Source of the DNA: a virus
Virus record (IMG/VR): IMGVR_UViG_3300050159_000095
Reading direction: 5' to 3' (one strand)
Length of the DNA stretch: 64,000 nt
Shown here: positions 1,301 to 7,682 of the stretch, in pieces
Position numbering within the stretch: position 1 is the first letter of the stretch
How the letters are laid out: every line of letters starts with the position of its first letter
Made by a program: the position numbers and the translations under genes
Notes under the pieces: generated by a model
Databases searched by the model: none
The model's input: the letters and a program-made list of their open reading frames with translations, nothing else
What the model was told of the DNA's origin: nothing

Positions 1301-1558
1301 ATGCAATAGGTTTTTGAAAACGTCCAAATCGTATTCCACTTCAATAAGGCACACTTAGCCGATCCTGTGATCCCAATGTGGGTATTGAAAGTGAAAGGTG
1401 AAACGTACTACGTGTCTCACGTTGAGGTCAAGCCCAATGTTGGATTCTGTACGAAGGAAACTCCCAATAACCCTCACACAAAGGGTTCGATCAAGATCAA
1501 AGGGAATTTGACTATTTTCGCCAACGAGGAGGGCCAGCCTGAAGCGGTGATTTCCTGA
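1301..1558 (+). pseudogene. hypothetical protein with amber at codon 3 (or shorter ORF 1367..1558)
   Basis: AAGGAAATCATC-ATG CAA TAG at 1301-1309 is in frame with the open frame to 1558. Confidence 0.45.
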
Positions 1559-2034: not shown

Positions 2035-2119
2035 GGCTGGTGATGTGTTAGTGTGGTTGGTATTTATCGCCGCGTTGACTTATCAACCGCTTCTCCTTAT
2101 AATAGATAAATAGAACAAC

Positions 2120-2215
2120 GCCTCTGTAGTTCAACCGGATAGAACAGCGGACTTCTAACCCGTAGTATGACCAACGCAGGTCGAGGTGCGGGTTCGAATC
2201 CCGCCGGAGGCTCCA
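2120..2215 (+). tRNA. tRNA-Arg(UCU), atypical long variable arm
   Basis: Acceptor GCCTCTG/CGGAGGC + T-CCA; D stem GTTC/GAAC with A20; loop CTTCTAA; T arm GCGGG-TTCGAAT-CCCGC; 24-nt variable region. Confidence 0.85.
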
Positions 2216-2229
2216 ACAGGAACACAATC

Positions 2230-2268
2230 ATGTACATCCTTTTCGATCATTTCGACTTCATGAGTTAA
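2230..2268 (+). CDS. putative leader peptide MYILFDHFDFMS
   Basis: AGGA RBS upstream; stop directly followed by hairpin 2269-2312. Confidence 0.35.
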   Translation: MYILFDHFDFMS

Positions 2269-2326
2269 CCTACGTGGGTTATGGTTCAGGACGGTCCTGA
2301 ACACTGCGTAGGTGCTGGAGAAGTCG

Positions 2327-2584
2327 ATGAAACCATCACTCGGCCGAGCTGTGCGCCGGCACCACATTGCGCGATTGAAGCGAACCCGTAAAAACTATTG
2401 GTGGCCAGACAGGTCTGGTAACACACCAAGGCAACTCGGGATGCTCACTCAAACTCCTGCTATCTGTTCTTGCGACATGTGCGGCAGCCAACGAAAGTAC
2501 GAAGGCCGCACCCTACAAGAACTGCGTGAGATTGAGATGATGCGAGAACAAATGGAAGAACTGTTCGAAGGAGAAGACACATGA
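2327..2584 (+). CDS. small basic protein with CSCxxC motif
   Basis: GGAG RBS; RRHHIARLKR...TPAICSCDMCG; stop overlaps ATG of RF gene (ATGA). Confidence 0.8.
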   Translation: MKPSLGRAVRRHHIARLKRTRKNYWWPDRSGNTPRQLGMLTQTPAICSCDMCGSQRKYEGRTLQELREIEMMREQMEELFEGEDT

Positions 2585-3261
2585 AGACAATTGTTGAAAT
2601 CCATTCCGCTGAAGGCGGTGACGATAGCAAGCTGTTCGTCAAGGATATGGCCCAAGCATACATTAAGATGTTCCAGCGTCATGGCTGAAAGCATCGGGTA
2701 GTGTCTGAGCAGTTTGGTGAAATTCGTATTGAAGTCACCAATTGCGATCCGGCACTACTCAACAATGAGCCTGGTGGCCACAGACTGCAACGTACCCCAC
2801 CCACAGAAAAGCGAGGTCGCGTTCACACATCAACCGTTATGGTTGCTGTGATCAACGAGAGTGACTTTGCACAACCAAACTATGATGACATCGATCCTGA
2901 TGATTTCAAAGTGGAGTGGTATTCTGGCACGGGTGCGGGTGGACAACATCGCAACAAACACCAAAACAGCGTTCGCCTGACGCACATTCCAACAGGTCTT
3001 GTCGAAACGGCTCAGTGCCGTAGTCGCGAGAACTCAATGAATGAGGCAAAAGGCAGGCTGTTGAACACTTTGCGCAGCAATGCGAAGTATGCTAAGATTG
3101 TTGCTCAGTCAATTGAGCGCAAGAAGCAAATGGGTTCAGGTCAGCGTGGCGACAAGGTTCGTACGTATAGATTCCAAGACAACATTGCTACCGACAACCG
3201 CACAGGGAAGAAAGCTCCGCTGTCCAAAATCATGGACGGCAATTTTGAACTTTTGTGGTAA
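2581..3261 (+). CDS. class I peptide chain release factor (RF1-type PxT, lacks domain 1), in-frame TGA at 2686-2688
   Basis: EIHSAEGGDDSKLFV upstream of TGA; EPGGHRLQRTPPTEKRGRVHTS; GAGGQHRNK (GGQ); KVRTYRFQ. Confidence 0.9.
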
Positions 3262-3268
3262 GGATTGT

Positions 3269-3847
3269 ATGAGGGTATTTCAACCAACTTATTTGTATGT
3301 TAAGCAACACAAGTTAACAAAGAAACTATATTTTGGGAAAACAACACGCAATGACCCAGAACGGTATTTGGGATCTGGGTTGCATTGGCGTCGTCATTTG
3401 AAAGTCCACGGAAAACAACACGTAGTTACGTTGTGGACGTCATTGTTTACGATTGAGTCCGAATGCACGGAGTTTGCTGTAGCGTTTTCGGAAGTGTTTG
3501 ATATTGTTGAGAGCGACCAATGGTTAAACTTGATTGTTGAAAATGGTATAGGAGGAAAAGCCCAGGGCAGCACTCCCCCAGAAGAAGCAAGACGCAAGAT
3601 GTCTCTTGCACGGCTGGGTAAACCACCACCCAATAAAGGGAAACCACATACATCTGAAACGAGGGCGCGGATGAGCGCAGCCTCCCCTTGGAGAGGCAAA
3701 CAACAACCAAAGGACGCTGTTGCTAAGCGTTCTCAGACACGAAGGGGTATGATTAGACCAAAAGTAATCTGTACTCAGTGTGGGAAGTGTGGAGATGTTG
3801 GCACCATGCATCGTTGGCATTTTGACCGTTGTAAATGGGGAGGGTAA
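3269..3847 (+). mobile_element. GIY-YIG-like (Seg-type) homing endonuclease with NUMOD3 repeats
   Basis: YLYVKQH...LYFGKT..Y.GSG; repeats EEARRKMSLARLGK and HTSETRARMSAA. Confidence 0.8.
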
Positions 3848-3848
3848 C

Positions 3849-4454
3849 GTGCTACAATATCCGAGTATTGAAGGTTGGCGTACTGCTGAGATTGGCAAGC
3901 CGTGCATCGCATTTTACAAGTATGATGGCAGCAACCTGCGGTGGGAGTATGAGCCGAAGCGCGGTTGGAAGAAGATGGGAACGAGACGTCAGTTGTTTGA
4001 TGAAACTACCCCCTTATTCAACCAAGCAATTGAGCTGTTCCACGATCAGATGGCTGGTGTGATTGTAGACACAGTCAATCATGCGTTTGGCCGGAAGGTG
4101 GAGCGAATCACTGCATTCACAGAATTTTACGGGCCGTCGAGCTTTGCTGGCAGTCACGGGGAAGATGAGCAGAAAACACTAACGCTGTTTGATGTGTTTG
4201 TGTTCAAAAAGGGATTCATTCCACCTAAGCAGTTCGTCAAATTGTTCAGCCCGTATGATTGGTCTGCCAAAGTGGTTTACGAAGGTGTGATGGATCAGCA
4301 ATTCATTCACGACGTCTACAACGGGAATTACCCTGTCGAAGAAGGGGTGATATGTAAGGGAGCTGATTGGTCAACAAAGATCAAGACCCGGGCATACCTC
4401 GACAAGCTAATGCTTGTGAACAGAGGTTTGTGGGAAGAAGAGAAGAACGAATAA
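3849..4454 (+). CDS. RNA ligase-like nucleotidyltransferase
   Basis: Motif I KYDGSN; FTEFYG; LFDV; EEGVICK; KIK; GTG start assumed. Confidence 0.7.
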   Translation: MLQYPSIEGWRTAEIGKPCIAFYKYDGSNLRWEYEPKRGWKKMGTRRQLFDETTPLFNQAIELFHDQMAGVIVDTVNHAFGRKVERITAFTEFYGPSSFAGSHGEDEQKTLTLFDVFVFKKGFIPPKQFVKLFSPYDWSAKVVYEGVMDQQFIHDVYNGNYPVEEGVICKGADWSTKIKTRAYLDKLMLVNRGLWEEEKNE

Positions 4455-7280: not shown

Positions 7281-7682
7281 ATGAAGTACCCCAAGCAGGT
7301 GATAGTGGTCCGTAAGGACCTCAATATGCGCAAGGGCAAGATTGCCGCACAAGCAGCGCATGCTTCTATGGCTGTTCTGCTCAACTACGGTAGTTATGCT
7401 GCCGCAGACGGTTTGGTTAGTGAGTTTCGACTGGATCTAACCAAACCAGCCCTCAATCAGTGGTTGTCGGGCGCGTTTACAAAGGTGTGCGTTAGTGTTA
7501 ACAGTGAGCAAGAGCTCTTGGAATTGTGCGAAAAGGCACAAGGTCTTGGCTTCATGCATGCACTGATCACCGATTCCGGCAAAACTGAGTTCAACGGCGT
7601 GCCAACAAAAACTTGTGCTGCCTTCGGACCTGAATGGAATGATGAACTGGACAAATTGACTGGACATCTTCCGTTGCTGTAA
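7281..7682 (+). CDS. pth2: peptidyl-tRNA hydrolase Pth2
   Basis: KQVIVVRKDLNMRKGKIAAQAAHAS; KVCVSV; ITDSGKTEF. Confidence 0.92.
   Translation: MKYPKQVIVVRKDLNMRKGKIAAQAAHASMAVLLNYGSYAAADGLVSEFRLDLTKPALNQWLSGAFTKVCVSVNSEQELLELCEKAQGLGFMHALITDSGKTEFNGVPTKTCAAFGPEWNDELDKLTGHLPLL

What the first reader, a model, noticed from the sequence alone, without database searches (positions are those of the whole stretch)
2327..3261. Phage RF1-type release factor gated by an in-frame UGA at a Trp position
ATG 2581 opens MKTIVEIHSAEGGDDSKLFV...FQRHG, then TGA (2686-2688), then the same frame continues (KHRVVSE...) to the PPT and GGQ motifs. The upstream part matches RF domain 2 (E. coli RF1 EVRAGTGGDEAALF...RRWRVE), and the TGA falls on the W. 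The UGA-A context is known to be leaky. No frameshift is needed, unlike prfB. PxT factors read UAA/UAG and not UGA, so synthesis would respond to host RF2 activity rather than to its own product. That would make it a possible sensor switched on when RF2 or termination is impaired. It also lacks domain 1 and is translationally coupled to a CSCxxC protein that may be a partner.
Basis: partly seen in the sequence, partly recalled or inferred. Interest (0 to 1): 0.85.

Follow-up and report, generated by a model that had tools for sequence, protein, structure and literature searches.

The report
UGA-gated short phage release factor
A giant phage carries a shortened RF1-type translation-termination factor whose gene holds one TGA stop at a conserved tryptophan codon; all 153 distinct related genes keep it, so it looks like a built-in gate tying the factor's synthesis to how well the cell stops at UGA.

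Summary
ATG 2581 opens a frame that is interrupted only by TGA 2686-2688 and runs on to TAA 3259-3261. Read through, it gives a 226-aa RF1-type release factor (PPT and GGQ motifs, no domain 1). The TGA sits on the Trp that is conserved in bacterial RF1.

The TGA is not an error, a pseudogene or a genome-wide recoding:
- All 153 distinct homologous sequences (42-81% amino-acid identity), from jumbo phages, metagenomes and a few bacterial chromosomes, have TGA at this codon.
- Codons on both sides are under equal purifying selection.
- The window otherwise uses TGA as its main stop codon.
- No tRNA(UCA) was found in the five related or distant phage genomes scanned: one whole, the tRNA-bearing regions of four.
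- There is no conserved downstream hairpin, so no SECIS-like element.
- More distant huge-phage homologues carry TGAs at other early codons, and one has a prfB-like CTT-TGA-C +1 frameshift site. Gating of phage release-factor genes by UGA is therefore recurrent.

Best reading: programmed UGA readthrough, probably as Trp, in competition with host RF2. This would be a trans version of prfB control. That the gate works as a sensor is inference.

The proposed CSCxxC partner protein is not conserved across the family.

I found no published description. This scan has noted the same design on other DNA, in notes from at least seven other genomes.

The parts
2075..2103 (+). sigma-70-like promoter TTGACT-17-TATAAT (11 of 12) ahead of the tRNA; possible start of the tRNA / small ORF / RF transcription unit
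   Evidence: A consensus match only; function not shown.
2120..2215 (+). tRNA-Arg(UCU), 96 nt. A tRNA-Arg(UCU) also lies just upstream of the RF gene in the relative G001.
2327..2584 (+). Small upstream ORF (85 aa, CSCxxC, no Pfam or NCBIfam match). Its TGA (2582-2584) overlaps the RF start codon (ATGA).
   Evidence: Not conserved across the RF family.
2568..2573 (+). Shine-Dalgarno-like AAGGAG, 7 nt before ATG 2581
   Evidence: read from the sequence
2581..2685 (+). RF gene, codons 1-35. In the model these form strand beta1 (2-11) and the helix (14-34) whose GGDDS tip corresponds to the U1-reading helix alpha5 of RF1.
   Evidence: pN/pS is 0.21-0.29 in seven of the eight pairs compared, the same as downstream.
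2686..2688 (+). In-frame TGA at the conserved Trp position (codon 36), context GGC TGA AAG
   Evidence: TGA in 153/153 distinct homologues.
2689..3261 (+). RF gene, codons 37-226 plus TAA: rest of domain 2/4, PPT loop (2797-2805), GGQ domain 3 (GGQ at 2938-2946)
3269..3847 (+). GIY-YIG / NUMOD3 homing-endonuclease-like gene directly downstream. A neighbour, not part of the device.
   Evidence: NUMOD3 1.7e-9; GIY-YIG 0.023, below cut-off

Best explanation
Bases 2581-3261 are one functional gene for a 226-aa class-I release factor of the RF1 type. It has decoding domains 2/4 with a PPT loop and a catalytic GGQ domain 3, and it lacks the N-terminal domain 1. The full protein can be made only if the ribosome reads through UGA at codon 36 in frame.

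The most likely decoder is near-cognate Trp-tRNA(CCA), which would restore the ancestral Trp. It would compete with RF2, the only factor that reads UGA. When RF2 terminates efficiently, a 35-residue peptide is released. When UGA termination is slow or RF2 is limiting, more full-length factor is made. This is the logic of the prfB (RF2) gate, but it works by readthrough instead of a +1 frameshift, and in trans: an RF1-type product (UAA/UAG) does not read its own gate.

Shown here:
- The stop codon is conserved.
- There is coding constraint on both sides of it.
- The window uses the standard genetic code.
- No opal-suppressor tRNA was found in the relatives scanned, and there is no SECIS-like structure.
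- The fold and the decoding residues are RF1-like.

Inferred: Trp insertion, dependence on RF2, UAA/UAG specificity, and the physiological purpose. Possible purposes are to add UAA/UAG termination capacity, or to free RF2 from UAA, when a phage whose genes end mostly in TGA loads RF2.
For: 1. One continuous RF1 match spans the TGA. RF1 scores 198 bits, RF2 117 and PrfH 47 against solved structures.
2. The AF2 model (pLDDT 90.3) superposes on ribosome-bound RF1 at TMq 0.86-0.87. Residues 1-35 form beta1 plus the alpha5-like helix of the decoding domain, so a product started after the TGA would lack them.
3. TGA is present at the same column in 80/80 IMG/VR loci, 80/80 metagenome loci and the 6 bacterial-assembly loci whose match spans codon 36. 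That is 153 distinct sequences down to 42% identity. It is the only internal stop in each.
4. The 'full-length' database proteins checked (P0011, P0107) show W there only because TGA was read as W.
5. pN/pS for codons 2-35 is 0.36 pooled, against 0.40 downstream, with pS about 0.8.
6. The genome uses code 11. Of 99 greedy ORFs, 56 end in TGA, many with ATGA overlaps. Across 64 kb of synteny with the 350-kb relative G001, the RF gene is the only gene with a conserved internal TGA; the only other conserved in-frame stop is a TAG at 1307.
7. No tRNA(UCA) was found: ARAGORN on the whole of G001 and on the tRNA-bearing regions of G002, G003, LR745206 and LR756504. Each of these genomes has a single RF-domain gene.
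8. RNAalifold finds no conserved pairs around the TGA in 23 diverse members.
9. The 3' context looks selected. The +4 base is A 110, G 26, C 17 and T 0. Codons 37 and 38 keep the same synonymous codon in 0.80 and 0.81 of distant pairs, against 0.38 overall.
10. Gating recurs independently. Distant huge-phage homologues have one or two TGAs at other early codons (LR745206, LR756504, LR756502, LR756501). LR745208 has GGAGGGG-T-CTT-TGA-C followed by a +1 continuation.
11. Contigs from four other runs are identical over the TGA.
Against: - There is no direct evidence of readthrough, of the inserted residue, or of dependence on RF2.
- No stimulatory element was found, so efficiency may be only a few percent.
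- The pay-off is unclear. An RF1-type factor cannot relieve a shortage of UGA termination directly, yet about 55% of the ORFs here end in TGA.
- The suppressor-tRNA scan relies on ARAGORN. Outside G001 it covered only regions where Rfam had found tRNAs, and the rest of the window's own genome is not held.
- One distant homologue (LR756511) has no internal stop, so the gate is not obligatory for every short phage RF.
- Relatives carry tRNA(CUA) amber-suppressor-like genes, whose relation to a UAG-reading factor is unexplained.
Confidence: 0.7

Rival explanations
1. Fixed attenuator, not a sensor. The UGA only holds synthesis of a potentially harmful domain-1-less release factor at a low, constant fraction of upstream translation. 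Changes in RF2 activity play no regulatory role.
For: No stimulatory RNA structure. The gene is often translationally coupled by ATGA to whatever ORF precedes it, so a downstream throttle would be useful. Conservation of TGA is explained equally well if TGG over-expression is deleterious.
Against: A weak SD or start codon could set low expression, yet all 90 members whose start was located begin with ATG. Independent lineages chose UGA again, and one chose the prfB-type CUU-UGA-C site, whose known role is RF2 sensing. No TAA or TAG gate was seen among the sequences examined here.
Confidence: 0.17
2. Split gene. Translation stops at the UGA and a separate product (186 aa in the window, from GTG 2701) is made by internal initiation or reinitiation. 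The 35-aa peptide is discarded or joins non-covalently.
For: Gene callers annotate 175-186-aa products. The window has GTG at 2701, five codons after the TGA.
Against: No start codon is conserved after the TGA; codons 37-46 are mostly ACT/ACC/CGC/CTG/ATA. The N-terminal 35 codons are always in the same frame, directly abutting, and under the same purifying selection. They form beta1 and the U1-reading helix of the decoding domain, without which stop-codon recognition is not expected.
Confidence: 0.05
3. Dedicated decoding. A phage-encoded opal suppressor tRNA, or a late switch to code 4 (TGA = Trp), reads the codon, as in TGA-recoded phages that carry RF1, a suppressor tRNA and TrpRS.
For: Such code-change modules exist in Jade phages (Borges et al. 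preprint, 10.1101/2021.08.26.457843). These jumbo phages carry 50-60 tRNAs, including CUA-anticodon tRNAs.
Against: No tRNA(UCA) was found in the five genomes scanned. TGA is the commonest stop in the window and no other gene in the syntenic 64 kb has a conserved internal TGA. Bacterial chromosomal copies keep the TGA beside normal RF1 and RF2.
Confidence: 0.05
4. Selenocysteine codon, or a decaying pseudogene or sequencing error.
For: TGA is the Sec codon. A single internal stop is the usual mark of a pseudogene.
Against: No conserved hairpin follows the TGA and ARAGORN reported no tRNA-Sec. The aligned residue in RF1 is Trp. TGA is retained in 153/153 sequences, with purifying selection on both sides. 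Independent contigs are identical.
Confidence: 0.01

Closest known systems
prfB (RF2) autoregulatory recoding: in-frame UGA at codon 26, +1 frameshift at CUU UGA C with an upstream SD-like element (Craigen and Caskey 1986, from memory; survey in 10.1101/2024.09.24.614795)
   Same: An in-frame UGA lies early in a class-I release factor gene. The yield of full-length factor should rise when UGA termination by RF2 is inefficient. The signal is conserved across many lineages.
   Different: Here the frame does not change, and there is no CUU slippery codon and no conserved SD-like stimulator. The product is RF1-type (PPT), so control would be cross-regulation by host RF2 and not autoregulation. The UGA replaces a conserved Trp codon. 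A distant phage homologue (LR745208) does use a prfB-like site.
Bacterial RF1 (prfA)
   Same: PCRF and RF-1 domains, the Q-R-x-P-x-T-E...G-R-x-H-T-S decoding residues, GGQ, and a fold matching ribosome-bound RF1.
   Different: It lacks domain 1 (the match starts at model position 106 of 347). It scores 176 bits against a cut-off of 400. It carries an internal UGA. It is an extra paralogue in phages and in a few bacteria that already have prfA and prfB.
Leaky UGA readthrough in RNA phage Qbeta (A1 protein, UGA read as Trp; from memory)
   Same: Phage gene; UGA decoded at low efficiency by Trp-tRNA with no suppressor; product ratio set by competition with RF2.
   Different: Qbeta readthrough adds a C-terminal extension to a complete coat protein, and both products function. 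Here the stop is at codon 36, inside an essential domain, and only the readthrough product can be a release factor.
PrfH (RF-H), the domain-1-less RF homologue coupled to RtcB
   Same: Also lacks domain 1 and keeps a decoding-like domain plus GGQ. Linked to ribosome rescue in conflict settings (PMC6514570). The window's neighbourhood holds RNA-repair-type genes.
   Different: Sequence relation is weak (TIGR03072 48.6 bits against a cut-off of 166.65; 47 bits to PDB 9mor). PrfH lacks the canonical PxT decoding loop (from memory; not checked here). No internal stop is described for it.
Giant-virus (Mimivirus/Megavirus) eRF1-like termination factor genes that need recoding (Jeudy et al. 2012; from memory, not checked here)
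   Same: A virus-encoded termination factor whose own mRNA needs readthrough or frameshifting at a stop codon.
   Different: Eukaryotic-type eRF1 in viruses of amoebae; unrelated protein family and hosts.
RF1 in the 'code change module' of TGA-recoded Jade phages (10.1101/2021.08.26.457843)
   Same: A phage-encoded RF1-type factor.
   Different: Those phages recode TGA across many genes and carry a suppressor tRNA and TrpRS, and the RF1 gene itself is in standard code. Here the genome uses TGA as a stop and only the RF gene has an internal TGA.

Membership tests
Class-I bacterial release factor, RF1 subtype | PCRF (decoding) and RF-1 (GGQ) domains | tested here: met
   Pfam PCRF 3.3e-20 and RF-1 1.9e-18, both over their cut-offs. 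Fold matches ribosome-bound RF1 at TMq 0.86-0.87.
Class-I bacterial release factor, RF1 subtype | PxT tripeptide and RF1-type third-base readers (Gln before the loop, His-Thr after it), as opposed to the SPF/Val of RF2 | tested here: met
   GGHRLQRTPPTEKRGRVHTS aligns to T. maritima RF1 GvHRvQRvPvTEsgGRiHTS. RF1 198 bits against RF2 117 bits. Codon specificity itself was not assayed.
Class-I bacterial release factor, RF1 subtype | GGQ catalytic motif | tested here: met
   G120-G121-Q122, invariant in 31 family members.
Class-I bacterial release factor, RF1 subtype | N-terminal domain 1 and full-length equivalog score | tested here: not met
   The match starts at model position 106 of 347. Score is 176 bits against the 400 cut-off of NF001859. 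The upstream ORF has no RF match. It is therefore a truncated RF1-type paralogue, not prfA.
prfB-type programmed +1 frameshift | CUU UGA C shift site, SD-like element upstream, continuation in the +1 frame | tested here: not met
   The context is CAT GGC TGA AAG and the continuation is in frame 0. No SD-like element is conserved. The feature is met in the distant homologue LR745208.
Programmed stop-codon readthrough | In-frame stop conserved among diverged homologues, with purifying selection on both sides | tested here: met
   153/153 TGA. pN/pS 0.36 upstream and 0.40 downstream.
Programmed stop-codon readthrough | Constrained 3' context or stimulatory element | tested here: inconclusive
   The +4 base is never T, and codons 37-38 show excess synonymous conservation. 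No conserved RNA structure was found. Shared ancestry was only crudely controlled.
Programmed stop-codon readthrough | Readthrough product detected | not testable with these tools
   Needs a reporter assay, mass spectrometry or ribosome profiling.
Genome-wide TGA reassignment (code 4 or 25) | In-frame TGA in many genes, loss of TGA as a stop, tRNA(UCA) | tested here: not met
   TGA ends 56 of 99 ORFs, many with ATGA overlaps. No other conserved internal TGA in 64 kb. No tRNA(UCA) in the five genomes scanned.
Selenoprotein gene | SECIS hairpin just 3' of the UGA | tested here: not met
   RNAalifold finds 0 conserved pairs in 23 diverse sequences.
PrfH (RF-H) | TIGR03072 score over its cut-off; RtcB partner | tested here: not met
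   48.6 bits against 166.65. No search for RtcB was made; the ligase-like ORF 3780-4454 had no Pfam match.

The most novel reading that the evidence does not exclude
The UGA gate is a true trans-acting sensor. Jumbo phages, and a few bacteria that acquired the gene, measure RF2-dependent UGA termination through readthrough at codon 36. They answer by making an RF1-type factor that changes UAA/UAG termination capacity. That factor may also set how well the amber-suppressor-like tRNA(CUA) genes of the same phage lineage compete at UAG. This would be the first cross-regulatory circuit between release-factor activities, and a conserved programmed readthrough in a dsDNA-phage translation-factor gene, evolved several times with different gate positions and once as a prfB-like frameshift.
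Probability: 0.35. Interest if true: 0.85.

Novelty: new variant of a known kind. Interest (0 to 1): 0.8.

Why it matters
Recoding-based control of a release factor is a textbook case known from a single gene, prfB. Here a different factor (RF1 type, without domain 1) is gated by a different recoding event: in-frame UGA readthrough at a Trp codon. The gate is present in more than 150 distinct sequences from jumbo phages of soil, leaf litter and fresh water, and from some bacteria. Related phage genes carry gates at other codons, or a prfB-like frameshift.

If the gate senses RF2 activity, phages would be monitoring and retuning host translation termination. That would also make conserved programmed readthrough in bacteria directly testable.

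It also matters for annotation. Gene callers truncate this gene to 175-186 aa, or call short contigs in code 4, so the family is systematically mis-annotated.

Tried and rejected
- Megablast of 2100-3500 against the phage collection found no match. tblastn found only homologues below 40% identity, several of them host prfA/prfB in contaminated 'phage' records.
- No whole genome is held for the window. tRNA content was therefore examined in relatives only.
- A first tblastn screen for in-frame stops was swamped by off-frame matches and was redone with best-frame filtering.
- The upstream CSCxxC ORF as a conserved partner is rejected: upstream ORFs differ among loci.
- A conserved RNA structure or SECIS is rejected: none found. 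The window's own fold has a z-score of -3.6 but is not conserved, so I gave it no weight.
- Identity of the tRNA(CUA) genes in relatives: no clear nearest isotype.
- Literature: five full-text searches and seven papers read gave no description of this gate. The library lacks most subscription journals, so absence is not proof.
- Sequencing runs: no RNA holder is listed, so nothing can be said about expression.
- Sampling 300 Alphaproteobacteria found no further chromosomal copy at E <= 1e-68. This means 'not found in those searched'.

Full report
**What is in the sequence**

Window 2581-3261 (+) starts with ATG, preceded by AAGGAG 7 nt upstream. It runs for 35 sense codons and meets TGA at 2686-2688. 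The same frame then continues to TAA 3259-3261. With the TGA read as a residue, the 226-aa product (P0001) matches the NCBIfam RF1 model in a single stretch: residues 3-223 against model positions 106-332 of 347, at 176 bits. RF2 scores 110 bits and PrfH 49 bits. Pfam finds PCRF at 3-88 and RF-1 at 103-207.

A family profile scores 198 bits against solved RF1, 117 against RF2 and 47 against PrfH. It pairs residue 36 with the Trp of T. maritima RF1 'erkGWnle'. The decoding stretch GGHRLQRTPPTEKRGRVHTS keeps the Gln, P-x-T, Glu, Gly-Arg and His-Thr-Ser of RF1. GGQ is at residues 120-122.

An AlphaFold2 model built on 31 family members has pLDDT 90.3. It superposes on ribosome-bound RF1 at TMq 0.86-0.87 and rmsd 2.6-2.9 A. 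Residues 2-11 form a strand. Residues 14-34 form the helix whose GGDDS tip corresponds to helix alpha5 of RF1. Residue 36 opens the next strand.

There is no domain 1, and the ORF upstream (2327-2584) has no RF similarity.

**Is the TGA real and is it selected?**

Contigs from four further leaf-litter metagenome runs are identical over 2300-3300.

The same TGA turns up in every collection searched:
- In IMG/VR, 80 of 80 related loci (52-75% identity) have TGA at the aligned codon, as the only internal stop.
- In the metagenome collection, another 80 of 80 do, 74 of them new; the closest is 81% identical.
- In species-representative bacterial assemblies, the six loci whose match spans codon 36 have it too. 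They include Thalassospira xianhensis, Jiella sp., Gemmobacter caeni, Sphingobium and Sphingomonas MAGs and a Pseudobdellovibrionaceae MAG.

Database proteins of 222-226 aa that show W at this position are TGA read as W by the gene caller, in the two cases I looked up. In total, 153 distinct nucleotide sequences all have TGA. The lowest pairwise identity among representatives is 42%.

Synonymous sites are close to saturation (pS about 0.8). Pooled pN/pS is 0.36 for codons 2-35 and 0.40 for codons 37-226. Both parts therefore encode protein in this frame, and a one-step TGA-to-TGG change has been rejected throughout.

**Is it a different genetic code or a suppressor?**

In the window, 56 of 99 greedily chosen ORFs end in TGA, many in ATGA overlaps. 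The window is syntenic with a complete 350,089-bp IMG/VR genome with direct terminal repeats, here called G001. A best-frame translated comparison over this synteny shows only two conserved in-frame stops: the RF gene's TGA, and a TAG at 1307 discussed below.

ARAGORN finds 56 tRNAs and a tmRNA in G001 but no tRNA(UCA). The same holds for the tRNA-bearing regions of two further relatives (G002, G003) and of two distant huge phages. Each of these genomes has exactly one RF-domain gene.

RNAalifold on 23 diverse members, from -30 to +62 around the TGA, predicts no conserved pair. So there is neither a SECIS nor a stimulatory hairpin.

What is conserved is the local context. The -1 codon is GGN, mostly GGC, encoding a Gly that RF1 also has. 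The +4 base is A 110, G 26, C 17 and T 0. Codons 37 and 38 keep the same synonymous codon in 0.80 and 0.81 of pairs below 70% identity, against 0.38 overall. +4U is the base that strengthens bacterial termination (PMC5289835, abstract seen).

**Recurrence**

Domain-1-less RF1-like genes of the huge phages of Al-Shayeb et al. are 33-38% identical to this one. They have F or L at the Trp position but carry in-frame TGAs elsewhere in the first 60 codons or so:
- LR745206 has two.
- LR756501 has two.
- LR756504 has one.
- LR756502 has one.

Their 47-kb surroundings look like standard code, with TGA rarely used at all. LR756511 has no internal stop. LR745208 has GGAGGGG-T-CTT-TGA-C followed by continuation in the +1 frame, which is a prfB-type site. 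So phage release-factor genes have been gated by UGA several times and in different ways. This argues for function and against a frozen accident.

**Where the family lives**

Most members lie on phage contigs, several of them complete genomes of 340-425 kb with about 50 tRNAs. The bacterial copies are a third paralogue beside normal RF1 and RF2. They sit in ordinary-looking chromosomal surroundings. None was found in 300 other Alphaproteobacteria sampled, which suggests sporadic transfer.

**Mechanism**

The most economical reading is programmed readthrough of UGA-36 by near-cognate Trp-tRNA in competition with RF2. It would yield a release factor that, judged by its decoding residues, reads UAA and UAG but not UGA. 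Output would then vary inversely with UGA termination efficiency. This is prfB logic in trans.

None of this was measured. The inserted residue, the efficiency, the dependence on RF2 and the codon specificity are all inferences. A plain attenuator role (rival 1) cannot be excluded. A split gene, a hidden suppressor tRNA, Sec, or decay are each contradicted by specific results, listed under the rivals.

The purpose is open. One possibility is that a phage whose genes end mostly in TGA (about 55% here) loads RF2, and extra RF1-type activity takes over UAA stops. Another possibility is a link with the tRNA(CUA) genes of the lineage.

**The partner idea**

The ATGA overlap with the CSCxxC ORF is real. 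However, the ORF in front of the RF gene differs among family members. It can be a 75-aa 'FGVDSIKDGLCPDGVKYDW' protein, a GIY-YIG endonuclease, Pth2 or another gene. Look-alikes of the window's ORF occur in only three loci. A conserved partnership is not supported.

**Novelty**

Five full-text searches and seven papers gave no description of this gate. The papers included the huge-phage, stop-recoding, jumbo-phage and release-factor-evolution papers. The library is incomplete.

This scan's own notes report the same UGA-gated short RF in at least seven other genomes, with similar conclusions. I treated those notes as leads and re-derived every point on this window's family. I class the finding as a new variant of a known kind, namely recoding-gated release-factor synthesis.

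Noticed in passing
window 1301-1558 (+): An SD-like AAGGAA and ATG CAA TAG GTT... open a small gene. Protein-level conservation with G001 and L119 begins right after the TAG (VFENxxIVFHFNKxH), and there is no ATG, GTG or TTG until 1367. The TAG itself is conserved in all three. This is a candidate in-frame amber codon, or a start-stop mini-ORF, in a lineage whose relatives carry tRNA(CUA).
   Followed up: partly
relatives G001 332868-332944 and 344214-344286; L206 13611-13686 and 13693-13769 (G002); L210 3129-3203 (G003): Amber-suppressor-like tRNAs with anticodon CUA occur in all three jumbo-phage relatives that also carry the UAG/UAA-type release factor. G001 has no tRNA-Trp(CCA) among its 56 tRNAs. 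The isotype of the CUA tRNAs could not be assigned by similarity.
   Followed up: partly
L199, L200, L201, L231 (LR745206, LR756504, LR756502, LR756501); L233 (LR745208): Distant short RF1-like genes of 485-735-kb phages have one or two in-frame TGAs at other early codons. Their decoding residues also differ (His replaced by Gln after the loop; Gln replaced by Val, Ile or Asn before it). LR745208 has a prfB-like GGAGGGG-T-CTT-TGA-C +1 site and a shortened recognition loop (QRTSNGRIHSS).
   Followed up: partly
L103, L107, L108 (Thalassospira xianhensis, Jiella sp., Gemmobacter caeni): Chromosomal copies of the gated short RF lie beside normal RF1 and RF2, in non-phage-looking surroundings (RNase H, redoxin/DsbD in Jiella). 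The Gemmobacter copy has PLG in place of PPT.
   Followed up: partly
window 2120-2215 (+) and 2075-2103: The tRNA-Arg(UCU) is 96 nt long; the homologous tRNA in G001 is 72 nt. It lies directly behind a near-consensus sigma-70-like promoter.
   Followed up: no
window 3269-3847 (+): A GIY-YIG/NUMOD3 homing-endonuclease-like gene lies directly after the RF gene. Similar endonuclease genes lie directly before the RF gene in other family members (L017, L051, L075, L076, L078).
   Followed up: no
G001 304515-304896 (-): The phage relative encodes its own tmRNA (tag ANEGNFRLAA). Together with Pth2 (window 7281-7682) and the short RF, this suggests a set of ribosome-rescue and termination functions.
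   Followed up: no
window 2689-2694 and family codons 37-38: There is excess synonymous conservation of the two codons after the TGA (ACT ACC, GCT ACC or AAG CAC classes), and no member has T at +4.
   Followed up: partly
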